DNA of 64,000 bases from Stegostoma tigrinum. Lineage: Eukaryota. Positions 14,323-62,040 of the stretch are shown here, piece by piece. The stretch lies in NCBI RefSeq assembly GCF_030684315.1, contig NC_081373.1, forward strand, positions 42,577,173 to 42,641,172, written 5' to 3'. Every line of letters begins with the position of its first letter. Position 1 is the stretch's first letter. Made by a program: the position numbers and the translations under genes. The notes beneath the pieces were generated by a model. The model had not been told where the DNA came from. It searched no databases and was given only the letters and a program-made list of their open reading frames with translations.

Positions 14323-14329
14323 ACATTCT

Positions 14330-15255
14330 CAGAAGTCACACAACACCAGGTTATAAACCAACAGCTTCATTTGAAATTGGAGGATGCTTACTTGAATACT
14401 ACCGTCACATGTGGGAACACCACCAACCAAGTACACATATGTGACTTGGCCAATGTTGTCTACCTCATATGCTGCAGTCAAGAATGCCCAATGGATGGTA
14501 TATTGGTGAGATGCAGGCACAATCACCAGGCAGGAATGTTCCCTCCCAGTTGGGGAATGCTTCAGTGATCAAGGACATTCAGCTGCCGATCTTTGGGTAA
14601 TCATTCTTCAAGGAGGCCTTTAAGATACACACCAGCGCAGAGTCGCTGAGCACAGGCTGATAGCAAAGTTCCGCACCCAAAAGGACGGCCTCAACTGTGA
14701 TCTTGGGTTCAAGTCGTGCTACATGTGAACCCACCACACTGTTCAGTATCTGTAAAATCTTCCTTATTGTCCTGTTTTGACACCATCACCTTGATAAGTT
14801 GTTATGACCTCTCTACTTTAATTAGTTTATACAGCTTTGGATTAGTTGTACTTTGGTTAGACCCTTGGCCTGCGATTCTTATATCTATCATTTACTCCAG
14901 CCATTTGGTTGTCTCCTTATTTCTATTTCTTTTTGCAAATATCTCTCTGCCTCAATTAATTGATTATAAGTCATATTCTTCACTTGTTATTCAGCTGTTG
15001 ACATTTTACTCACATCATCTGACACTTTTGATCACCTGCAGAGACTTATTATTCAACTTGTTGACACTCCACTCACACAATTCATATAATCTTTTGATTT
15101 CTCTGCTATAAATACTGTGCTTGTCTACCTCTCTGCCTGATGAAGGGGCAGCGCTTTGAAAGCTTGTGATTTCAGATAAAACTGTTGTACTATAACCTGC
15201 TGTCATGTGACTTCTGACCCTTTCCACCCCAGTCCAACATCGGCATGTCCACATT
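14330..15255 (+). mobile_element. Penelope-like element 3' part (GIY-YIG remnant plus pLTR with hammerhead-like core)
   Basis: ICDLANVVYLICCSQEC resembles the start of the PLE GIY-YIG domain. CTGATGA at 15137 is followed by GAAAGCTT at 15158 and a pLTR-type end. Confidence 0.8.
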
Positions 15256-24589: not shown

Positions 24590-26650
24590 AATACATCTTA
24601 ATAGGTATGATCTGACTGATATTACAGAAAAATTGGTCATAAAGAAATCCAATACAGCAACTAAATATTCCAGGGTATGTGGCTTTTTGAAAGGGCAGGT
24701 AGGAAGGAAGTGGTGGTGGAGTAGCTTTGATTGTACAAAATGGAATAAGTATCAATATCAAGGAATGACCTAGGATTGATGATGGAGAATCAATATGGGT
24801 GGAGGAAAGAAATAACAAGGGCAAGAAGTTGCTGGTGGGAAGAGTATTTAGGCCCTCTAACTGGAGCTGTTCTGCAGGACAGATATTAAATCAAGTGATA
24901 AGAGAGCACGGGAAAAGAGAAAAGCATTAAACATTTGTGACTTTAAGCTTCATATAGATTGGGAAATTCAAATTAGCAAAGATAGCCAATGAAGAAGAAT
25001 TTGTTGAGTATGTTTAAGACAAGTTTCCTGGAACAATGTGCTGTAAATCCGACCAGGAAACAGACTACTTTGCATCTAGCAATGTGTAACAAGGCTGGAT
25101 TAATAAATGATCTTAGGATAAATATCCCCTGGGGAATAACAACCGTAGTGATTCAGAATTCAGCATTCCGAAGGTATTTATAAAAGAACAGGGCAGAGTT
25201 GGGTGGAGTGGAAAGGGAAAGAGGTTTTGCAGAAAAGACAGGTGTGGAACAATGGCAGACATTTAAGAAAATTGTTCATGAGTCACAACGAAAACATATT
25301 CCAGTGAGGAAGAAGGAAGGGCATAAATCAACCACGTTTAACCAAGGAAGTTAAGGATAACATGAAACTGAAAGAAAACATACAATGTTGTTGATAAAAC
25401 AGAGGACTGGGCATGTTTTAAAATTCAATAAAAGGTAATCAAAAAATTATCAAAGAAGGAGAAAATAGAACAGCAAACTAGCAATTAATATAAAATTGGA
25501 CACAGTGATTTTTTTTTCATACGAAAAGGGAGGGGCTGAAGGGGACATAGTGCCCTGTGATAATTAAACTGGGGAAAGAATAATAGGAAGCCAGGAACTG
25601 ACAAAGGCATTTAAAAAATACTTTGCATTGATCTTCATGGTAGTGGATAAACAGCATATCAAAAATACTTAACAGTAAGGGGCAAAGGGCTTGACAAATT
25701 TATTACAGTTCTTTGAGGACATACTAAGCAGGACAGATCAAGTGGAACCGGTAAATGTAATACATTTGAATTTTCGAGTACCAAAAAGAAGGCTACTTAA
25801 TAATAGCCTATGGTGTTGTGGATAGTACATTTGCATTAGCATGGATAGAGGATGAGCTAACTGATAGAAGGCTTAAAGTCACATGACACCAGGTTATAGT
25901 CCAACAGGTTTATTTGAAATCACAAACTTTTGAAGTGACTTCACCTGATAGAAGAGCAGGGGTTTGAAAGCTTGTGATTTCAAATAAGTCTGTTGGACTA
26001 TAACCTGGTGTTATGTGTTTTCTGACCTTGTCCAACCCAGTCCAATACTGGCACCTCCACAATTAATAGAAAACAGAAATTTGGGATAAAGGGAGCATTT
26101 TCAGGATGACAACCTGTCAGGTAAACAAGGATCAGTGCTGGGGTCATAATTTACAAAATACATGCATGACTTGGATGAGGAAAATGAATGTACTATTGCT
26201 AAGCTTATGGATGACACAAAAATAAATGGGAAGAAATTACTATGGATGATACCAATAGCCTACAGAGGGATCTCGGCAGGTTAAGTGAGAGAATAAGAGC
26301 TTGGTGCTTGAGATATAACATGAGAGAAGGTGAGGTTATGCAATTTGGTAGGAAGAATAGAACTGTTGAATTGTATTTCAATGGAGAAACTGCAGACAAT
26401 GTCAGCTCAAACTGATTTGGGGTGCCCCCATGCATTAATAGCAAAAAGCTAACTTCTAAGTTTGGGGTTCAGTAGGGGAAACAAACAGACTGTTGGCCTT
26501 TATTTCAATAGAAATGGAGTACAAAAATGGGGTGTTCTAAAACAACACAAGTTTTTAGTCAGACTACAGCTGGAATACTGTAAAGAGCTTTGGTTCTGCT
26601 AGGAAAGGAAAGAAATACTGGCATTGGTGGCAGTAGAGAAGGTTCACAAC
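24590..26650 (+). mobile_element. Old, internally deleted CR1 LINE with a nested Penelope insert
   Basis: Degenerate endonuclease (YDL..ITE, ESIWVE) and RT (DDTKI) motifs. Confidence 0.8.
25875..26061. mobile_element. Fold-back Penelope-derived insert (second family)
   Basis: Arms cacatgacaccaggttatagtccaacaggtttatttgaaatcacaa and ttgtgatttcaaataagtctgttggactataacctggtgttatgtg. Same family as 15137-15255 and 53193-53290. Confidence 0.8.
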
Positions 26651-29469: not shown

Positions 29470-29665
29470 AAAGAAGCAGAAAATGTTGGGGAAACTCATC
29501 TGTGGAAAGAGAAACAAAGTTAATGCTTCAAGTCTAAAGACTTCTTTAGAATAAAGTATTTCAAGTCTTGAAATGTTAGCTCTGTTCCTCGCTCCACAAA
29601 TGCTGCCAGACCTGCTGAGTTTCTCTAGCATTTAGCTTTTATGTTGGATCTCTAGCATCAGCAGT
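29470..29665. mobile_element. Decayed fold-back Penelope insert
   Basis: Imperfect inverted arms; atgctgccagacctgctgagtttctctagcatt pLTR motif. Confidence 0.65.
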
Positions 29666-37094: not shown

Positions 37095-38475
37095 CCAGCA
37101 GGCCCAGACAGGGAACAATGGGTCCAGACAGGGAGATAGTGAGCCCAGAAAGGGGAACAGCAGGCCCAGACAGGGGTCAATAGGTCCAGACAGAGAGATA
37201 GCGGGTTCAGAAAGGGGGACAGCAGGCCCAGATAGGGGGACCGTGAGTCCAGACAGGGAGATAGTGGGCCCAGACAGGGGAACGGTGGGTCCAGACAGGG
37301 GGCTGGCGCATTCAGACAGGGGGTTGGTGGGCCCAGACAGAGGGATGGCACGTCCAGACAGGGGTATGGTGGGCCCAGACGGGGACAGTGTGTTCAGACA
37401 GGGGTACAGTGCGTCCAGACGGGGGAACAGCATGTCCAGTCAGGGGGGCATTGGGCCCAGACAGGAGTCAGCACATCCAGACAGGGGGACAGCATTCAGA
37501 CAGGGTGATGGTGGGCCCAGACAGGGATACAGTGTGTCCAGACAGGGGGATGGTGGGCACAGATAGGGGGACAACCCATCCAGGCAGGGGGATAGTGGGC
37601 CCAGACAGGGGTCAGCACGTCCAGACAGAGGGACAGCGTGTCCAGACAGAGGGATAGTGGGCCTAGACAGGGGGACAGTGCATCCAGACAGGATGATGGT
37701 GGGCCCAGACAGGGAGACAGTGTGTCCAGACAGGGGGATGGTGGGCACAGATAGGGGGACAACCCATCCAGGCAGGGGGATGGTGGGCCCAGACAGGGGT
37801 CAGCACGTCCAGACAGAGGGACAGCGTGTCCAGACAGAGGGATAGTGGGCCTAGACAGGGGGACAGTGCATCCAGACAGGCGGATGGTGGGCCCCGACAG
37901 GGGACAGTGCTTCCAGATAGGGTGACAGCGGCCCAGAAAGGGGGACAGCAGGCCCAGACAGGGGGATGGTGAGCCCAGACAGGGGAATGGCACGTCCAGA
38001 CAGGGGGATGGTAGGCCCAGACAGGGGGGCAGCACGTCCAGAGAGGGAGACAGCATGTCCAGACAGGGGGATGGTGGGCCCTGATGGGGGACAGCAGGTC
38101 CAGACAGGGGGACAGTGGGCCCAGACAGAGGGACGGCGCATCCAGACAGGGAGATGGTGGGCCCCAACAGGGGGACAGTGTGTTCAGGCAGAGGGATAGC
38201 AGGCCCAGACAGGGGTCAGCACATCCAGACAGCAGGGATAGCGCACCTAGTCAGGAGGACAGCAGGCCCAGACAGGGGGGCAGCCGGTTCAGACAGGGAG
38301 ACAGTGCGTCCGGACAGGGGACAGAACGTCCACACAGGGGGACAGCATGTCCAGACAGGGGGAAGGTGCATTCAGAAACGGTGACAGTGGGCCTGTGCAG
38401 GGGAATGGTGCGTCCAGACACGGGAACAGCAGGCCTGGACAGGCGCCAGTGGGTCTAGACAGGGGGACGGGCGAC
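37095..38475. repeat. ~21-bp GC-rich minisatellite (gtgggcccagacagggggat)
   Basis: Dozens of ccagacagg-cored units; includes a 188-bp higher-order duplication. Confidence 0.95.
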
Positions 38476-39050
38476 CAGGGTTCTGAACTGTGAAGACAGC
38501 AGGCCTGAACTGGGGGGACGGTGGGCCTGAACTGGGGAGCAGGGGGAATGGGGTTCCAGATTGGGGGCCTGAACTCAGGTACAGGGGACTGGGGTTCCGG
38601 ACTGGGGGGACGGTGGGCCCAAACGGGGAAACAGGGGGAATGGGGTTCCAGACTGGGGATCCAAACTGGGGTACAGGGGACTGGGGTTCTGGATTGGGGG
38701 TCCAAACTGGGGGGACAGGGGGACTGGGGTTCTGGACAGCAGGCCTGGATTGGGGCGACGGGGAATCTGAAGTTCTGGACTGGGGGCCCAAACTGGGGTA
38801 CAGGGGAATTGGGTTCTAGACTAGAGGGACAGCAGGCCTAAATTGGGGGACAGGGGACTGGGGCTCCAAAATGGGGTACAGGGGAATTGGGGTTCCAGAG
38901 TGTGGTGATAGTGGGCCTGAGCTGAGGTACAGAGGGACTGGGGTTCCAGACTGGGGGTCAGTGGGCCCGAACTGGTGGGACAGGGGGGCTGGGGCTCCCA
39001 AGTGAGGGGACAGCGGGCCTGAACTGGGGGCCCGGGCAGGGGGGCAGTGT
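38476..39050. repeat. G-rich minisatellite (ggggactggggttccagactggggg-type)
   Basis: Dense G4-G6 runs with short spacers. Confidence 0.9.
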
Positions 39051-40999: not shown

Positions 41000-43960
41000 A
41001 ATGGGTAAAAATCTAGCAGACTGGGTTTAATTGAGAAAATACAAGGCAATCCATTTTGGGAGGAAGAATAGAAAGTCAGAATATTATTTAAGTGGAGACA
41101 GATGACAAAATGGTGGGTTCTTACATACTCCAGGTGTGAGTGTTAGCAGGAGCACAAAATCGTCATCACTAAAATTGTGACACAAGTTATGAACGGCACA
41201 TAAAGAGCAAACCAAATACTAGACAGTTACGCTAAAGCTGTATCAAACCTCAGTTAGAATACACTTAGACTACTGTGTGACATTTTATGTAAAGGATATT
41301 GAGGCACTAGCATTTGTGCAGTGATTTTGTACAGGGATGATACAAAATATGCGCAGGTATGTAAGTCAGGAAGGAATGAACTAGCTTTGTCTTTCTTCCC
41401 TTGAAATACGAAAGCAATGCACTGATCTCATGGTAACTCTAAATGTATTACAGGACTAGGAAACAGAAGAAACTTTTAAGATGTGCACAAGAGAATCTTC
41501 TTAATTAATACATCTCCAGCCAACAGGTAGTGAAAGTGGATCTTGAATCTGCTCCTGGGAAAGTAGAGTGTGTTAGGAGGAGATCATGCAGCACATTGTG
41601 ACAACTGCATAGTTTGGTTTAGAGTAATTACAGAAAATAGCCAAAGTAATATTGCTCAATTGGGAAGAGTTCATTTCAGTTATTTAAAGAATGGACTGGA
41701 GAAAAGATGGTTCCAGAGTAAAGGAGCAATTGAAAAATGGAGAGTAGTCAGCGAAGTGATAATGAAGGTACAAGATAGGAATAATATTTTAAAGATAAAA
41801 GTTGGACCACTCAAATACATTCAGCCCTGGATGACAAAGAATATAAAAGTTAAACTAAAACAGAAAAAAAGGAGATTTATAACAAATGTTAGGAGTGAGA
41901 CGCTGCTAATAATCAAGAAGATAGAAAGCACAGGAGTGAATTTAAAAAGCTAATGCAGGAGGCAAACAGACTACAGGTAAATGATTCAGAGATAATGGGA
42001 ACTGCAGATGCTGGAGAATCCGAGATAACAAAGTGTGAAGCTGGATGAACACAGCAGGCCAAGCAGCATCTCAGGAGCACAAAAGGCCTAGACCCTTCAT
42101 CAGAAAAACAGAAATACAGGTAAATGATTCGTAGGTAATATTAAATTGAACTCTGAAACTTTTCACAAGCACATGAAGTGTAAGCAGTTTGCTAAGGATA
42201 AAACTGGACCTATTAAGGACCCAAAGGAAAATGTTCATATGGAGACAGAGGAAATGGATGGTGTCAAATGAGTTAAAAGAAAAATGGATGATGTGAAAGT
42301 TACACTGAAAGAGAAAAGGAAAGTTATGGACTGGGGAATAATACTTAGAGAAAATATGCTAAAAGGATTAACAATATTATAAGTTGTGATGTAGCCATTT
42401 GGCTTGGGTGGGATTCATGCTTACTTGCTTCAAGAAATAGCAGAAGCCAATCCTGCAATCTTAACTGGAAGTTGCTAATGTTACACCACTATGAAAAAAA
42501 GTGAGGGATAAGCCAGGAATTTACAGGGTAGTCAAACAGCTATAGTTCTACTCACCATCCTGACTTGGAACTATATCACTGTTCTCTCCCTGTTACTGGG
42601 TCTACATCCTGCAACTCAACTTCTCACCAAGGGCACTGTGGGTGCTCCTACACCACAGAGATTGCAGTCGTTCAAGAAAATAGCCCACCAGCAACTTCTC
42701 AAGGGCAACTAGGGGTGGGCAATAAATGTTAACCTATCCAGTGTCATTCACATCCCATGAATGAATAAAAAAGAGTCAGCTCAATGTCAGTGGTGTGCAA
42801 TTGCTGGAAAGTATATCAAGATCTTTACAAAATTACATTTGGAAATGAATGTGTTAATCAAAGAGCGACAACATGGATTTGATAGAACTAAACAGTGTCA
42901 GACTCCATTGGTTGAATTCTTTCATGAGATACAAAGAGTGGTCAAGGTGTTGTAGGGATATTGTATTTGGACATTCAAAAGGTGTTCAAAATAGGTGCTA
43001 CTCATAAGCCTTACTGAGAAGGTGGAAGTTCACGGAATTAGGGGGAAACGACATCATGGATACAAAATTGGCTTACTGAAAGGATGCAGAGAGAGGTGGC
43101 GGATTGATACTTTATAGACTAGCGGGTGGTTTGTAATGTTCCCCAAGGTTTATTTTGGGTCCATTGTATTTAACTTTAAATAAACAACCTTGGCTCGGGT
43201 GTTGGGAGCAGCTTTATAAAGTTAACAGCTGGTATGAAATATTTCAAAGTGGTAGTTAATGATGAGGAAGTGCTGCATTCTACAGGATGATAGTCAGCCT
43301 GGTGAAGTAGGTAGATACATAGCTGATGACAATCACCGTGGAGATGTGTGAAGTGATGCACATTAGAAGAATTAACCTGGAAAGACACTGTAATACAGCA
43401 GAACTATTTGGGATATGTAGATGAGCAGAGAAACCTCATGTCCATATATACAAATCCTTAAAAATGGCAGGGCAAGCTGATAATGTGGTTAAGTAGCAAG
43501 TGAGTTGCTCAGGTTTATAAATGGAAGAAGTAAATATAAAGACAAGGTGATAACACTAGAACCTTACAAATGGTAGGTTAGACCTCAGATGGAGAATTGT
43601 GGATAATTCTGGTCACCATACTTCAAGAAAGATGTAAAATGTAATAGAATAGATATAGGGAGTTTTACCACAACATAACAAGGAATAACGAACTTAGCTA
43701 TGAGGAGAGGTTGGAAAAGTTAGAATTATTCCCCTTAATTTAGATGAGGTGTCCAATTGAAGTTTTCAAGATGATCATAAGAGTCATTGAGTTTTTAAGT
43801 ATGGCATGCAAAGAAACCCTTCGGCCCACTGTGTAATCAAACATACTGCAATCAAACATCCATCAATTTTAATCAGAGGTTTTGGTACAGTAAATGAAGA
43901 GAAACAAAACTAATCACTCTGGAGAGTGGATGAATAACTAGGAACTATTGATTCAAAATC
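41000..43960 (+). mobile_element. Old CR1 LINE fragments with nested inserts
   Basis: Degenerate motifs (PWMTKNIK, RQHGF) with many stops. Nested SINE/LINE tail near 42540-42770. Confidence 0.7.
41988..42114 (-). mobile_element. Single-arm Penelope-derived insert with deleted hammerhead core
   Basis: Same sequence family as 44756-44970 but lacks gctgacgtttcg. Direct repeat TACAGGTAAATGATTC at 41972-41987 and 42115-42130. Confidence 0.85.
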
Positions 43961-43997: not shown

Positions 43998-44210
43998 CTG
44001 TTTGAGCAACTCGCTTGTATGTGTATGCCAGGCAGAGATGATCCTGCCACTTTCGGACGATTCGCTGTGATTCAGCGGTTAGTCCTTTAGGATCCCGTGA
44101 GAAAACAAATGAGTAACTGTCTGCGCAAGTTCCATTATCATTCAGTTTTCGACATGTATATGTGATGGCATAGTTATCGTAATCCGTGTCAATAATCCAG
44201 TGATCATCAT
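43998..44210 (-). CDS. RBP4: RBP4 coding exon 4
   Basis: ctttcAG|AT acceptor. (N)DDHWIIDTDYDNYAITYTCRKLNDNGTCADSYSFVFSRDPKGLTAESQRIVRKWQDHLCLAYTYKRVAQT. 213 nt, donor G|GTAAAT. Contains the lipocalin TDY motif. Confidence 0.96.
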
Positions 44211-44755
44211 CTGAAAGAATAAAACATGTCGCAAGGTATTTTTTACCTGAATGGTGAACAACGTAACAAGGCTATTATACTTAAAACACAGGCTCGTTAT
44301 TTCAGCACTTTTACCATTAAGACCCATTCATCCCACACTTCTGTGCCCACTAACCAAAACTCTTAATTACTTTTTCAGTGCACAGACCTTTGAGGTCCAT
44401 GTGTGGCATTAACTTCCTTTAAAATCTGTTTCACTAAACTTTTGGCCTTCTTACTAATACTTCCTGATGTGTTTCAAATTTAAATTTTCACAAAGCACCA
44501 CAGGGCATTTTAACATGTTTAAAAAAAAGTGTCATACAAATGCTGCTAGTTTCACACTGCTTGTCCAATTCTGTTACATAAATGTTGAGCTGTAAATCAG
44601 ACCAGTGCCGCTAGTGGTAGAAAAGCAGGATTTTCAAAAGTCCACTGATGTGTGCTTGTTCCTGTGACACATTTACTAAGACCCACTTGCGACAGAGGAG
44701 AACCTGGACACTTTACTTTGTCAACAAAACAAAAACCAACATTATTGAGCATCTG

Positions 44756-44970
44756 AGATAATGGGAACTGCAGATGCTGGAGAATTCCAAGATAATAAAA
44801 TGTGAGGCTGGATGAACACAGCAGGCCAAGCAGCATCTCAGGAGCACAAAAGCTGACGTTTCGGGCCTAGACCCTTCATCTGATGAAGGGTCTAGGCCCG
44901 AAACGTCAGCTTTTGTGCTCCTGAGATGCTGCTTGGCCTGCTGTGTTCATCCAGCCTCACATTTTATTAT
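44756..44970 (+). mobile_element. Perfect fold-back Penelope-derived insert with hammerhead core
   Basis: 89-bp perfect arms (44792-44880 and 44882-44970). CTGATGAAGGGTCTAGGCCCGAAACGTC at 44880-44907. Flanking repeat ATTATTGAGCATCTG at 44741-44755 and 44969-44983. Confidence 0.9.
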
Positions 44971-45747
44971 TATTGAGCATCTGTCTGTTAATCCCTGCTG
45001 CATCATTACTCTACCCAAGTTTCTTTTGATAGCAAGATCAGAAGGAAGAACCAAAATGATAATCGAACCATGAATGTGAAACAAGGAAATTGTACATAAT
45101 TTTAGTTAACTCTGTGACAGCTAAATAACTAACTGGATATAGGAAGTTGTCTTACTGAACATATAAATTACCATTCTGCATTCTAAATGAATCTGACCGT
45201 CAAAATTATTCAGCGTGGTTTAAGGGGTTTACCTTGGCATTAGTGAAGATAATATACCAGGAGTACAGTAGATCTTGTTATGAAGGGAAGCTTACAGCTT
45301 GGGCATTGTGTCCTTGGTCACTGCAATCAATGTAGACTTATAACTAGAATTGGTAAAGGAGAAGTGTGGTGCTGTCCCTAAAAACACCAAATAATAGGTG
45401 CAAGGAAGATTGTTCATTTATAAACATAAGCCAACCAGAGTGGTTTATACACTCAGACAAATAAACTGCAAGACAATAAGAATAAATGGAAAGCAATCAC
45501 TCGAAGAAAAGAATTCTCTGTTCTACATGAGTATCATTTGTCAATTCATTCCCTTACTTTTAAGTTCAATGCTTGTTAAGTATGAAGGTGGTGTGTGGTC
45601 TCTTTAATAACATGCATTCTTTATGCAACATTTAGAAGGGATTGTATAAAAGTGACCAAGTTTGGTGGAATTCAAGCATCGTAACCTGATGACTACTCAA
45701 GTCATTACCTTACTCAGGGGTAACACAGAGAAAAAACACTTAATTAT

Positions 45748-46053
45748 AGAATCCCTACAGTGTGGAAACAGGCCCTTCAGCCCAACAAGTCCACAATGAT
45801 GCTTGGAGTATCCCACCCAGACCCACACCCCTATAACCCACACACCCCAGAACACTACAGGCAATTTAGCATGGCCGATCCACCTAGCCTCTCCATCTTT
45901 GGACTGTGGCAGGAAACTGGAGCACTCAGAGAAAACTCACACAGACACAGGAAGAACATGCAAATTCCACACAGACAGTTGCCCGAGGCTGGGAACAAAC
46001 CTGGGTCCCTGGCGCTGTAAGGCTGCAGGGCCAGCCACTGAGCCACCGTGCTG
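45748..46053 (-). mobile_element. tRNA-derived SINE (HE1/V-SINE-like)
   Basis: Minus-strand head cacggtggctcagtgg...; same family as 7674 and 23272. Confidence 0.88.
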
Positions 46054-46161
46054 CTTCACACAGACAATGAATCGTCGGAGAATAGAATCATAGAATGAAT
46101 AAAGCCATTTGGCCCATTGCATCTGTGCTGGCAAGACAGGTTGAGAGTGTACATACCTTTG

Positions 46162-46277
46162 TGCTACAGGCATACTAGTCAAAACTGCCTAATCTTACCC
46201 GATCTCATAAGTTAAGCAGACTCAGGCCTCATTTGTACTTGGAGTGGAGATGGCCTGGGAATACCAGCTGCAGTAGC
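46162..46277 (+). pseudogene. Degenerate full-length 5S rRNA-derived sequence (probable SINE head)
   Basis: gctacaggcatact...cgatctcataagttaagcag...gtacttggagtggagatggcctgggaatacc...gtagc is colinear with vertebrate 5S rRNA including box A/IE/C regions. Many substitutions and no T-run terminator. Confidence 0.8.
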
Positions 46278-46896
46278 AAAGCAAAGGCAGGGAGGTCTTG
46301 TGTGGCATTGATAAGGTCCCTACGTCCAGACTGGAAGGTCTGGGTTCAAGTCCCAATTGCCCCACAGGTGTTTCATAACATGTCCAACAGGCTGATTAGA
46401 AAGTATCTTAGCACTCTTTGTTTAACAATACAGAAAAACAAGGAGGTTATGCAAAACCTGTATAACAACTGGAGTATTCAATCAACTTCTGGGTACCATA
46501 CATGAGGCACACGTGAGTGTGGAAAATACAAAATCTTGAGGATCGTCCCACGGATGAGGAATTTCCGTATGTGGAAAGACTGGAGAAGTTGGTAAGAGAG
46601 GAGATTGATAGAGATATTCAAAACTATGAAGGATCTGGACAGCGTCAGTACTGTGTGGAGCTGGAGGAACAGGTTAGGCAGCATCGGAGGAGTAGGAAAG
46701 TTGACATTTACACCCGTCATCTGTCCTGTTCCTACCAGTAGAAGGTTTGAGACCTGTTGCACATGTTAACTAGCCAAGGAAAAGCAAAGGAAGATAAACC
46801 TTCTCACACAGTGAGGGGTTAGACTGAATGCACAGTCTGACTGCTTGGCAGCAGCAGGGTGAATTCAGGCTTTCAAACAGAATTGAATTGCTACAA

Positions 46897-48147
46897 GACA
46901 GCAGTATGGTATCTCGGTGTCTAGCACTGCAGCCTCACTGCACCAGGGACCTGGGTTCGATTCCACCCTTGGGTGTCTGTCTTTGTGGAGCTTGCATATT
47001 CTCCGCATGCCTCTGTGGGTTTCTCTGGATGTTCTAGTTTCCTCTCACAGTCCAGTGATGTGCAGCTTAGGGTGGATTGGCCATGCTAAGTTGTCCTGGA
47101 CTGTACACGCTACGGTGGATTGGCCATGCTAAGAGGGAGTAAGAACTGCCAATGCTGGAGTCTGAGATAACACATTGTGGAGCTGGAGGAACACAGCAGG
47201 CCGGGCAGCATCAGAGGAGCAGGAACACTGATGTTTCGGGTCGGGACCCTTCTTCAGAAATGGGGGAAGGGAAAGGGGAGGGCAAGGGGGCTCTGAAATA
47301 AATAGAAAGAGGGGAGCGGTGACAGCAGATGGGAGAGAAGATGGACAGGTCAAGGAGGCAGGGATGAAGCTAGTAAAGGGGAGTGTAGCTAGGTGGTGGT
47401 GGTCTACTGTATCCACTGTTCTCAATGTGGCCTCCTCTACATCGTTGAGACCAAACGGAGGCTCGGAGACCGCTTTGTAGAGCACTGGCGCTTGGTTCGT
47501 GACAAACAACACCTCCCAGTTGCAAACCACTTCAACTCCACCTTCCACTCCCTGGACAACATGTCCATCCTTGGCCTCCTTCAGTGTCACAACGATGCCA
47601 CCCGGAAACTGGAGGAGCAGCATTGCATATTCTACCTTGGAAGCCTACAAACTAATGTTCTCAATGTGGACTTTACTAGCTTAAAAATCTCCCCACCGAC
47701 ACACCCCCACCTCATCCCAAGACCAATCCCCCCACTCTCAACCCCACTTCATGTCTATCTTCCCTTCCACCTATCTGCTCCTCCCACCTCACTGGCCAAT
47801 CCCCATCACCACCTACTTACACTCATTTTTACTAGCTTCATCCCCGCCTCCTTGACCTGTCCATCTTCCCTCCCATCTATACGCTCCATCTATACATTTC
47901 TGAAGAAGGATCTTGACCTGAAACATCAGCTTTCCTGTTCCTCTGATGCTGCCTGACCTGATGTGTTCCTCCAGCTCCACACTGTGTTATCTTGGTCATT
48001 CTAAGTTGTCCTGGGGTGTGCAGGGTGGGGTGGATTAGCCATGACAAATGCAGAGTAATAGGCTGGTCTGGGTGGGATGCTCTCTGGAGGGTTGGTTGGG
48101 ACCCAATAGGCTGAATGACCTGCTCCCACACTATTGGGGTTCTATGA
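46897..48147 (+). mobile_element. tRNA-derived SINE split by a Penelope insertion
   Basis: Head with B box gggttcgattcc near 46953-46964. Body resumes at about 47992 with duplicated ttgg(c/t)cat(g/t)ctaag. Confidence 0.8.
47134..47991 (+). mobile_element. Penelope-like element: inverted pLTR, GIY-YIG fragment, pLTR
   Basis: ORF 47393-47956: VVYCIHCSQCGLLYIVETKRRLGDRFVEH...PVANHFN...RKLEEQHCIFYLGSLQ...LN. Inverted terminal copies carry CTGAAGA...GAAACATC. Confidence 0.92.
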
Positions 48148-48405
48148 TTAAGAGAATTATATAAAGTGAAAAGGCACTGGGTGACTTGCTGTTTCAGAGG
48201 GCCAACAGCGGCAGGATGGGCCGAATGCACACCGAGATCCTTTAAAATGAACGACTAGAAATGTATTTACAAAATACTGAGAGCATGGATTGCCAAGTCG
48301 CCGGTTGGTGAGGTCAGGTCAGGGATTCCGAGTGGGTTGCTGGAAGGCAGGTTGGCTTTTACACTGTACCAGAGCATGGCCCTCCTGTACTGACTGGGTA
48401 CTCAC

Positions 48406-52889: not shown

Positions 52890-53040
52890 ACAAGGAAAAA
52901 GGGAAGACATTTGATGGTGGGGAGATGGAGATAACACAGCAGGCTAGGCAGCAACAGAGGAACAGGAAAGTAGACGTTATGGGTCAGGACACTGTGTTAT
53001 CTCTGACTCCAGCATCGGCAGTTCTTACTATCTCTGAGTG
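52890..53040. mobile_element. Short Penelope-derived insert within Tx1
   Basis: Same family as the ends of 47134-47991 (ctccagcatcggcagttcttact). Confidence 0.7.
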
Positions 53041-53192
53041 GAGAGATGGAGGTGTCTCTTGCTCCCCCATCCTCCCCAAAAAAGGAGCCATTCCTCAGGG
53101 TCGGAGGGATGGGGGAAGTCTGGTACTAACAACACATTCCCCCGGGATGACAAAGTATTGTCCCCTGGAAACCCCTCTCCTTCCTCACTAGG

Positions 53193-53639
53193 TCAGAAAT
53201 CACATGACACCAGGTTATGGTCCAACAGGTTTATTTGAAAACACAAACTTTTAGAGCCTTACTCTTTCTTCAGGTGTTAGCGAGAGAGGAAGTATCAGAT
53301 ACAGAATTTATAAGTAAAAGATCAAATGGTCACACCACTGAAGAGGATGTATTAAACAAACCTAAGATGCTGCTAAACCTTCATTCAGTTAGAAGGATGT
53401 AATTGATTAATATGTATATATAAATGCCTGAATTCCTTTCAAGTCACAGTCCTGAGAGAACTAAAAGGTTTTATCAGTGTAAAGAAGAGGTGACATTTTA
53501 GGTCAGACAATGCATGTTGGATGTGAGGCCTTGTTTAGAATCCGTTTGTGTTTTGGTTTTGAGTCAGACTGGTTTTATTTCGAAAGTAGGACTTTATAAG
53601 ATGCTGCATTTTTTGAACAAAATAGATTGTATTTGCAAA
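53193..53639 (-). mobile_element. Penelope pLTR insert within Tx1
   Basis: Same family as 14760-15255 in reverse. Direct repeat TCCTCACTAGG at 53182-53192 and 53640-53650. Confidence 0.82.
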
Positions 53640-60724: not shown

Positions 60725-62040
60725 ACAGGAATCGATGGGTATTGGGGGCAAACTCTCCACTGCTTGGAGTCATACCTGGCTCATAGAAAGATGGTCGTGG
60801 TTGTTGCAGGTCAGTCATCTCAGCTCCAACACATTTCTGCAAGAGGTCTTCAGGGTATTGTCCTAGGTCCAGCCATCTTCAGCTGCTTCATTCATGATCT
60901 TCCCTCCATCATAAGGTCAGAGATGTTCATCGATGATTGCACAATGTTTAGCACCATTTGTGACTCCTCAGATACTGAAACAGCCCGTGTTCAAATGCAA
61001 CAAGATCTAGACGATATCCAGGCTTGGTCTGCCAAGTGACAAGTAATATTCACGCCTCACAAATGCCAGGCTATGACTATCACCAATAAAAGACAATCTA
61101 ACCCTCGCCCCTTGACATTCAATGGTGTTACTGTCATTAAATACCCCACCACCAACATCCTCGGGGTTATCATTGACCAGAAACTCAACTGGACCCACCA
61201 TATAAACACAGTAGCTACACGAGCAGGTCAGAAGCTAGGAATACTGTAGCAAGTAACTCATCCCCTGACTCCTCAAAGCTTGTCCACCATCGAGAAGGCA
61301 CAAGTCAGGAATATAAGATAACAAAGTGTGGAGCTGGATGAACACAGCAGGGCAAGCAACATCTCAGGAGCACAAAAGCTGACGTTTCGGGCCTAGACCC
61401 TTCATCAGGTCTAGGCCCGAAACGTCAGCTTTTGTGCTCCTGAGATGCTGCTTGGCCTGCTGTGTTCATCCAGCTCCATACTTTGTTATCTTGGATTCTA
61501 CAGCATCTGCAGTTCCCATTATCACAAGTCAGGAATGTGATGGAATATTCCCCACTTGCCTGGATGAGTGCAGCCTAAACAACAATCAAGAAGCTTGATA
61601 CCATCCAGGACAAAGCAGCCCGCTTGATCGGCACTTCATCCACAAGCATCCACTCCTTCCACTTCAGTCCTCAGTAGCAATGATATGTACTATCTACAAG
61701 ATGCACTGCACAAATTCACCAAAGATCCTCAGATAGCACCTGTCATGCCCACAACCACTTCCATCTAGGAGGACGAGGGCAGCAGATACATGGAAACACT
61801 GTCACCTTCAAGTTCCCCTTCAAGCCATTCACCACCCTGACTTGAAAATATATCGCCGTTCCTTCACTGTCGTTAGGTCAAAATCCTGGGCTTACCTCCC
61901 TAATAGCACTGTGGGCCAACCCACAGCATGTGGACCGCAGCGGTTCAAGAAAGAAGCTCACCACCACCTTCTCAAGAACAACTAGGGATAGGCAAGAAAT
62001 GCTGGCCAGCCAGCGACTCCCACATCCCAGAAATAAAGGA
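60725..62040 (+). mobile_element. CR1-like LINE 3' part in PDE6C intron 1
   Basis: ORF 60692-61039: LESYLAHRKMVVVV...QGIVLGPAIFSCFIHDLP...MFIDDCT. Confidence 0.9.
61313..61522 (-). mobile_element. Fold-back Penelope-derived insert with hammerhead core
   Basis: 85-bp arms (61315-61399 and 61408-61492, 3 mismatches). Minus strand CTGATGAAGGGTCTAGGCCCGAAACGTC at 61408-61381. Exact repeat CACAAGTCAGGAAT at 61299-61312 and 61523-61536. Confidence 0.9.

What the first reader, a model, noticed from the sequence alone, without database searches (positions are those of the whole stretch)
44741..44983. Perfect 89-bp-arm palindrome built around a hammerhead ribozyme core in an RBP4 intron
Seen: 44792-44880 and 44882-44970 are exact reverse complements around a single T, flanked by a 15-bp direct repeat (ATTATTGAGCATCTG). 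Across the centre the + strand reads CUGAUGA-A-GGG(UCUAGG)CCC-GAAAC-GUC. This is the hammerhead core with a 3-bp helix II, an extra A after A9, and a loopless palindromic helix III (ACGU). The - strand has CAGAUGA, a broken core. Established: Penelope-like elements carry such minimal hammerheads, proposed to cleave as dimers. Inference: a very recent insertion that would form 89 bp of perfect dsRNA in RBP4 pre-mRNA (ADAR/Dicer substrate) and a cruciform-prone DNA site. Helix I is poorly formed here, so cleavage by this copy is uncertain.
Basis: partly seen in the sequence, partly recalled or inferred. Interest (0 to 1): 0.72.

Follow-up and report, generated by a model that had tools for sequence, protein, structure and literature searches.

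The report
Young fold-back Penelope stump in RBP4
This palindrome is a 213-base stump of a very common Penelope-like jumping gene that sits in an RBP4 intron and is missing in a related species; it was likely built by copying the element's end twice in opposite directions, and its ribozyme motif faces away from the gene and is predicted to be locked inside the hairpin, so it is an ordinary insertion.

Summary
The palindrome is real. It is a young, 5'-truncated insertion of an endonuclease-type Penelope-like element (PLE) in the published 'inverted copy plus one tail' layout. The 15-bp repeat is a true target-site duplication: contigs of a related species from two studies show the empty site, exactly 228 bp shorter. 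It is not unique: 5 of 9 family loci in this window are inverted, one with a GIY-YIG remnant. RBP4 runs on the minus strand, so its pre-mRNA carries the broken CAGAUGA core. On both strands the core is predicted to be buried, 43 kcal/mol from open. Cleavage is unlikely; an intronic hairpin is predicted but untested. The likely origin is two cDNAs primed from the two strands of a staggered cut at the element's two start sites and joined at a 2-nt overlap. The scan has already reported such hammerhead-centred PLE palindromes in other genomes (e1-7858806, e1-7789271, e1-9807999). Interest is low.

The parts
44741..44755 (+). Left copy of the 15-bp target-site duplication
   Evidence: present once in the related species' empty site (records 24 and 9)
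44756..44791 (-). 36-nt PLE 'tail', present only on the left arm; its outer end is the family's outer 3' end (about +127 from hammerhead C3)
   Evidence: tail concept PMC8557442, PMC3846280, PMC11167929
44792..44880 (-). Left arm: 5'-truncated copy of the PLE end, sense on the minus strand, starting at hammerhead G5
44879..44883 (.). Head-to-head junction: 2-nt overlap (TC, 44879-44880) between the arms; the centre T44881 is U4 of the right arm's core
   Evidence: sequence; family sense match begins at 44879 in contigs (table 7)
44880..44907 (+). Minimal type-I hammerhead motif (core, extra A, 3-4 bp helix II, loopless ACGU helix III, cut position 44907); antisense to RBP4; predicted buried in the hairpin
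   Evidence: descriptor features PMC4209133
44879..44970 (+). Right arm: tail-less copy of the PLE end, sense on the plus strand, ending at the family's inner 3' end (about +91)
44969..44983 (+). Right copy of the 15-bp target-site duplication (first 2 nt shared with the arm)
44211..48405 (-). Host intron (4195 nt) between the third and fourth coding exons of RBP4; the insertion lies 530 nt from the acceptor
47135..47995 (+). Older sister insertion in the same intron: inverted tail arm, then GIY-YIG-type ORF remnant (47396-47698), 3' region, decayed hammerhead and tail-less end; links the family to an RT + GIY-YIG PLE

Best explanation
It is a young, 5'-truncated, non-coding insertion of the hammerhead-bearing end of an endonuclease-type Penelope-like retroelement, likely made when the element's protein nicked the two target strands 15 nt apart and primed one cDNA from each nick, with the hammerhead predicted to be inactive here. 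Shown: two head-to-head copies, one with a 36-nt tail, a 15-bp duplication, an empty site in a relative, and the same layout in sister copies. Inferred: one nick was extended from the inner start site and the other from the outer (tail) start site. Both cDNAs stopped at the 5' edge of the hammerhead and annealed through a 2-nt overlap, and fill-in gave the perfect palindrome. In RBP4 pre-mRNA it would be a passive intronic hairpin. Odds: identity as an ordinary inverted PLE insertion about 0.95; the two-primer route about 0.6.
For: Empty site: X8 record 24 runs 44200-44740 (record 566-1106) straight into 44969-45600 (1107-1758), and X12 record 9 does the same; that is 2 of 2 runs of the relative, from two studies. 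Family: 9 loci hit in the window, 5 inverted. All 5 have one tail-bearing and one tail-less end, and best-match duplications of 14-15 bp (0-2 mismatches); the solo copy has 16 bp. Two other hammerhead-type families show one inverted, one-tailed copy each. Protein link: the 47396-47698 peptide is 75% identical to P0003, which has RVT_1 (22.7 bits, under the cut-off) followed by GIY-YIG (23.2 bits, over the 22.6 cut-off). The C-terminus of P0004 matches the translated hammerhead stretch at 13 of 14 residues. Neither arm contains the other: the tail is only on one arm, and the tail-less arm reaches further 5' in 5 of 5 family copies (here by 3 nt) and in 6 of 7 inverted copies overall. The two arms share variants that set them 3-9 of 60-61 positions apart from the five other young-subfamily arms, with 0 between themselves, which fits one source. 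In vitro, a lizard PLE protein cuts and extends both strands from two start sites that bound the tail, and hammerhead cleavage is dispensable (PMC11167929). Burial of the core: 43.3 kcal/mol to open it on either strand, against 9.9 for an isolated sister arm.
Against: [quoted passage not shown] The inverted copy at 25876-26061 (another family, decayed) has its tail arm reaching about 8 nt further 5', against my ordering rule. The sample is 5-7 insertions in one window, and the short-range inverted-repeat search favours short arms. Tail-to-tail joins in 55 and 53 contigs of the host species are not explained by the model. No contig spans the centre. PMC3846280 explains head-to-head palindromes by self-priming instead.
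Confidence: 0.75

Rival explanations
1. Same element, but the mirror arm arises by self-priming or fold-back of a single cDNA or antisense template, as proposed for head-to-head PLE palindromes.
For: PMC3846280 Discussion. It explains perfect arm identity and shared variants with one template.
Against: Each arm holds bases the other lacks (tail on one, the 5'-most bases on the other) in 6 of 7 inverted copies. Both outer ends fall on the family's two fixed 3' positions rather than at random. The centre base here matches the tail-less arm, which could not template the tail.
Confidence: 0.15
2. The palindrome is itself a non-autonomous unit (MITE-like, or a palindromic master RNA) that is copied whole.
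For: Some centre joints recur in many contigs (44785 to 44879 in 20 and 25 contigs; 44837 to 44879 in 19 and 13), and tail-to-tail joins occur in 55 and 53 contigs of the host species.
Against: All 5 inverted family copies in the window have different centres and arm lengths. The ends are asymmetric and the duplications are 14-16 bp. Recurrent joints may be truncation hot spots or alignment effects, since the arms fit two places.
Confidence: 0.06
3. A working intronic hammerhead or dedicated regulatory hairpin of RBP4.
For: The + strand core matches the minimal-hammerhead features, and an 88-bp stem is predicted in the pre-mRNA.
Against: RBP4 is on the minus strand, where U4 is A. Helix I is 1 bp, the core is 43 kcal/mol from open, and it is paired as it emerges. 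The insertion is absent from the relative. Minimal PLE hammerheads do not cut as monomers (PMC4209133), or need protein (PMC11167929).
Confidence: 0.03
4. Assembly fold-back artefact.
Against: The flanks are unique and collinear with the relative. Both junctions, in opposite element orientation, occur in unique-anchored contigs of two samples with 0-1 mismatches. A 15-bp duplication bounds the insertion, and older diverged copies share the layout.
Confidence: 0.01

Closest known systems
Complex insertions of canonical EN+ Penelope-like elements: inverted 5'-truncated pLTR plus tail (PMC3846280; PMC8557442)
   Same: Head-to-head inverted copy, 30-40 bp tail at one end only (36 nt here), short target-site duplication, RT followed by GIY-YIG in the parent element.
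   Different: Reduced to two pLTR stumps with no ORF. The duplication is 14-16 bp against 8-10 bp in the rotifer examples. The junction sits on the hammerhead core. The parent's linker has a C-x4-C-x2-C motif, which points to Neptune/Nematis rather than Poseidon; no tree was built.
Minimal type-I hammerheads of metazoan PLEs (PMC4209133)
   Same: Core boxes, extra base between positions 9 and 10.1, G10.1-C11.1 pair, palindromic 15.2-16.2; that paper also notes pairs of motifs close together on opposite strands.
   Different: Helix II is 3-4 bp and helix I 1 bp here (about 2 bp in sister copies with native upstream sequence). The motif is buried in an 88-bp stem, and the mirror copy has U4A.
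PAc, the lizard Poseidon element studied in vitro (PMC11167929)
   Same: Two 3' ends separated by a tail. The outer end here lies 119 nt from the start of stem II, against a main start site 111-118 nt into an ORF that begins at stem II. A/T-rich target.
   Different: That paper does not discuss inverted insertions or duplications. The stretch after the hammerhead AUG is closed by a stop after 13 codons in this copy.
Non-LTR retrozymes (bioRxiv 10.64898/2026.07.22.740005)
   Same: Non-coding, PLE-related, type-I hammerhead-bearing.
   Different: Retrozymes are head-to-tail tandems with an intact hammerhead in each unit. This is a head-to-head pair with one intact core.
L1 twin priming (recalled, not from a call)
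   Same: Two primers from one staggered cut give an inversion joined by microhomology.
   Different: In L1 the two pieces cover different parts of the RNA; here they overlap almost fully and give a palindrome.

Membership tests
EN+ Penelope-like element insertion | Parent encodes RT followed by a C-terminal GIY-YIG endonuclease | tested here: met
   Met through the sister copy at 47135-47995 and its homologue P0003 (RVT_1 under cut-off, GIY-YIG over cut-off), and through the P0004 C-terminus running into the hammerhead stretch. This insertion itself has no ORF.
EN+ Penelope-like element insertion | Hammerhead motif in the pLTR | tested here: met
EN+ Penelope-like element insertion | Inverted 5'-truncated copy adjoining the 5' end | tested here: met
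EN+ Penelope-like element insertion | 30-40 bp tail at one end only | tested here: met
   36 nt, 44756-44791; 5 of 5 inverted family copies have one tail
EN+ Penelope-like element insertion | Short target-site duplication with a matching empty site | tested here: met
   15 bp; empty site in 2 of 2 runs of the relative
EN+ Penelope-like element insertion | Clade placement (Poseidon vs Neptune/Nematis) by RT tree | not tested
   Only a Cys-rich linker motif was seen, read against a passage of PMC8557442
Minimal PLE hammerhead (motif) | Core boxes, extra base after 9, G10.1-C11.1, palindromic 15.2-16.2 on the + strand | tested here: met
   against PMC4209133
Minimal PLE hammerhead (motif) | Intact core on the RBP4-transcribed strand | tested here: not met
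   U4 is A on the minus strand; RBP4 strand
Minimal PLE hammerhead (working ribozyme) | Helix I of 2-5 bp and an accessible core | tested here: not met
   1 bp; predicted 43.3 kcal/mol to open. Prediction only.
Minimal PLE hammerhead (working ribozyme) | Self-cleavage after C17 as a dimer or with protein | not testable with these tools
   needs a bench assay
Non-LTR retrozyme | Two or more consecutive head-to-tail units, each with a hammerhead | tested here: not met
   No tandem array at this locus; the arrangement is head-to-head
MITE / fold-back DNA transposon | Symmetric fixed termini and a shared internal structure among copies | tested here: not met
   Asymmetric ends and five different centres in 5 copies; defining features recalled
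Rfam hammerhead or microRNA families | Score at or above the gathering threshold | tested here: not met
   No hit at the locus at gathering; 11 sub-threshold hits, none a hammerhead

The most novel reading that the evidence does not exclude
These shark-type stumps are footprints of an undescribed 'downstream twin priming' step. A PLE dimer nicks 14-16 nt apart and the first cDNA starts at the inner of two copies of the same hexamer (UUAUCU, 36 nt apart). The second primer then uses the still-free tail and displaces the first cDNA, and the folded, perhaps dimerised, hammerhead acts as the stop-and-join point for both rather than as a cutter. This would explain together the tail, the inversion, the one-tail rule and the junctions clustered at the ribozyme, and it can be tested by cataloguing these very abundant insertions.
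Probability: 0.35. Interest if true: 0.55.

Novelty: new member of a known kind. Interest (0 to 1): 0.22.

Why it matters
The locus itself matters little: it is one of very many such insertions, and a host function is unlikely. It is a clean, datable presence/absence marker between two related species. As a class, such young copies record both cDNA starts, the cut stagger and the central join. PMC8557442 names the origin of PLE tandem/inverted structures as still undefined, so a genome-wide catalogue could decide between two-primer and self-priming models and show whether the hammerhead acts as a reverse-transcription stop.

Tried and rejected
No whole genome is held for this window, so family statistics come from the 64-kb window and from contigs laid on 44200-45600. 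Rfam: no hammerhead family hit; the microRNA-like hits are sub-threshold hairpin matches. An exact 33-nt family pattern gave 0 hits in metagenome and prokaryote genome collections. Pfam did not recognise the window's own endonuclease remnant or the RBP4-exon ORF; they were identified through homologues and solved structures. Sequencing runs: no RNA holder listed, which is no evidence either way. I laid 4 of 23 listed runs and left out the three bisulfite runs. No empty allele appears among the listed rows for the host species, but tables 5 and 8 are cut (1075 joints and 196,786 pieces not shown), so polymorphism is undecided. Loose-end counts at 44786 and 44790 partly reflect alignment breaks at this copy's variants, so I do not use them as proof of two ends. 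Summed depth was not used as copy number. Three fragmentary loci (29591, 46654, 63624) and the 11426 hairpin gave no convincing duplication. Supplement 2 of PMC11167929 held only figure labels, so the position of the second lizard start site is unseen. Searches for prior statements of the two-primer idea or of these shark elements listed 1, 3, 0 and 4 papers. Of these I read PMC6155905 (passages) and PMC11167929, and neither states it; the rest I saw as listings only. The library lacks most subscription journals.

Full report
OBSERVATION. The arms 44792-44880 and 44882-44970 are exact reverse complements around T44881, and a 15-bp direct repeat lies at 44741-44755 and 44969-44983. It is the only perfect pair among the 14 inverted pairs listed for the window. 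As RNA the minus strand folds at -194.5 kcal/mol, z = -27. The + strand carries a minimal hammerhead pattern from 44880, with the cut position at 44907. A scan for this pattern gives 4 hits in the window against a mean of 0.17 in 30 resampled sequences.

HOST CONTEXT. The exon at 44210-43998 matches RBP4 in solved structures (E about 1e-29). Four coding exons on the minus strand (48948-48829, 48739-48606, 48512-48406, 44210-43998) read without a stop for 191 codons. The neighbours are a 7-transmembrane receptor on + (the FFAR4 name is recalled from synteny) and cone PDE6 on +. The insertion therefore lies in a 4195-nt intron, 530 nt from the acceptor, and the pre-mRNA is the strand with CAGAUGA. 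The named protein relatives are sharks (73-75% identity) and rays (54-62%), so the host is likely a shark.

IT IS AN INSERTION, AND YOUNG. I laid 4 of 23 listed runs. In both runs of a related organism, from two studies, one contig runs from 44740 directly into 44969. The 228 bp missing are the 213-bp element plus one copy of the repeat, so the repeat is a target-site duplication. In both runs of the host species (two samples of one study; one may be the assembled sample) unique contigs cover 44200-44777 and 44948-45600 with 0-1 mismatches. These confirm both junctions and their opposite orientation. No listed contig spans the centre. The flanks differ between the species at 63 of 1173 positions. 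An insertion as old as the split would show about 5.6 differences in the 104 paired positions; none is seen (P = 0.004), which puts it within roughly the later half of that interval if no conversion acted. Polymorphism within the species is undecided because the tables are cut.

IT BELONGS TO A PLE FAMILY THAT INVERTS ROUTINELY. The left arm hits 9 loci in the window. Five are inverted pairs (44756, 61315, 20245, 52930, 47143), one is a solo tailed copy (41990) and three are fragments. Best-match duplications are 15, 14, 15, 14, 14 and 16 bp with 0-2 mismatches; these were chosen by a search near the ends. About 118,000 contigs of a host run lie on the stretch, and depth piles up on the element, so the family is very abundant; I give no copy number. 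The copy at 47135-47995, in the same intron, holds a reading-frame remnant 75% identical to a whale-shark protein with an RT match (under cut-off) followed by GIY-YIG (over cut-off). A zebra-shark homologue ends in 14 residues, 13 of which equal the translation of the hammerhead stretch here. The element is thus the 3' end of an RT + GIY-YIG Penelope-like element. A Cys-rich linker suggests the Neptune/Nematis side; no tree was made.

COMPARISON WITH PRINT. PMC8557442 (passages) describes 5' truncation, an adjoining inverted 5'-truncated copy and a 30-40 bp tail at one end as typical of PLEs, and calls the origin of these structures undefined. PMC3846280 (passages and the Discussion) shows the same with 8-10 bp duplications and palindromic head-to-head junctions, and proposes self-priming. 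PMC4209133 (parts 1-2 of 4) defines the minimal hammerhead, reports no monomer cleavage and low dimer cleavage, and mentions close pairs on opposite strands. PMC11167929 (parts 1-2 of 4 and passages; the one supplement opened held no text) shows that a lizard PLE protein cuts and extends both strands from two start sites bounding the tail, that its hammerhead cuts only with protein, and that cleavage is not needed for insertion. The retrozyme preprint (part 1 of 5) defines retrozymes as tandems, which this is not. PMC6155905 was seen as passages. The locus meets every PLE-insertion feature that I could test.

HOW IT WAS LIKELY MADE. Shown: all 5 inverted family copies have one tail-bearing end (about +126 to +131 from C3; the older 47143 copy about +123) and one tail-less end (about +91 to +96). 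Both ends fall at the end of the same hexamer, 36 nt apart. The tail-less arm reaches further 5' in 5 of 5, here by 3 nt. Two other hammerhead-type families add one inverted, one-tailed copy each; 31612 follows this order and 25876 does not, so the count is 6 of 7. By my reading the centres overlap by 2 nt here and by 1, 3 and 2 nt at 61408, 20340 and 52989; the fifth is unresolved. In 6 of the 7 at least one arm stops within or at the edge of the roughly 30-nt hammerhead. The arms here are identical but differ from the five other young-subfamily arms at 3-9 of 60-61 positions. Inferred: nicks 15 nt apart gave two primers, each was extended from one start site on RNA from one source, both stopped at the core's 5' edge, and they annealed through TC/GA and were filled in. 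This also accounts for the centre T, which is U4 of the tail-less arm. A plain fold-back cannot give arms that each hold bases absent from the other. Against the model: the lizard protein showed no strand preference for start site, one copy breaks the order, the sample is small, and tail-to-tail joins in 55 and 53 host contigs remain unexplained.

WHAT IT DOES NOW. On either strand the antisense arm is made first, so the core is predicted to pair as it emerges. Opening it costs 43.3 kcal/mol, against 9.9 for an isolated sister arm (4-bp and 3-bp helix II forced, respectively). Helix I is 1 bp because the native upstream bases were replaced by the mirror arm, and the RBP4 strand has U4A. Cleavage is therefore unlikely. 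An 88-bp intronic stem is predicted and could be edited by ADAR (general knowledge), but this was not tested, and the other inverted copies in this intron and the neighbouring genes would form similar, less perfect stems.

VERDICT. Observation confirmed, interpretation partly supported. It is a new member of a known kind. Earlier notes of this scan report the same kind in other genomes; they are unchecked leads, and my reading was recorded before I saw them. Interest 0.22. The value that remains is in the class: these copies make the open question of how PLE inversions form testable by counting.

Noticed in passing
window:44755/44791 (table 5): A tail-bearing end joined directly, tail to tail, to a tail-less end in 55 and 53 contigs of the host species; none listed in the relative, where alignments break earlier. 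It could be nested insertion at the element's own end or concatemers of the inverted unit.
   Followed up: no
window:47135-47995: Older inverted PLE insertion with a GIY-YIG remnant and a 14-bp duplication, in the same RBP4 intron.
   Followed up: yes
window:20245-20438, 52930-53033, 61315-61523, 41990-42114: Further family copies: three inverted with one tail each, one solo with a 16-bp duplication and a 12-nt deletion in the hammerhead. The 61315 copy sits inside a LINE-type remnant next to the PDE6 exon.
   Followed up: yes
window:15137-15255, 25876-26061, 53191-53274, 14329-14377: A second hammerhead-bearing PLE-type family (5-bp helix II, palindromic AGCU helix III); 25876-26061 is inverted with one tail.
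   Followed up: partly
window:31600-31834: A third family: inverted pair with one tail and an exact 11-bp duplication; related fragment at 29591-29665.
   Followed up: partly
window:11426-11515: 41-nt inverted arms (93%) with an 8-nt spacer, with no convincing duplication found; origin unknown.
   Followed up: partly
window:46162-46279: Decayed 5S rRNA-like sequence (42 bits, Rfam cut-off 38) in the same RBP4 intron; likely a pseudogene or SINE head.
   Followed up: no
window:17016-17504 (-): Another reading-frame remnant that looks like a PLE endonuclease by eye; no Pfam hit.
   Followed up: partly
window:26964-27619 and 37104-39027: Minisatellite arrays with 30-nt and 21-nt units; the second is strongly purine-skewed.
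   Followed up: no
window:45255: Run X4 differs from the window at this flank position at full depth while carrying both insertion junctions, so the insertion is on at least two haplotypes.
   Followed up: partly
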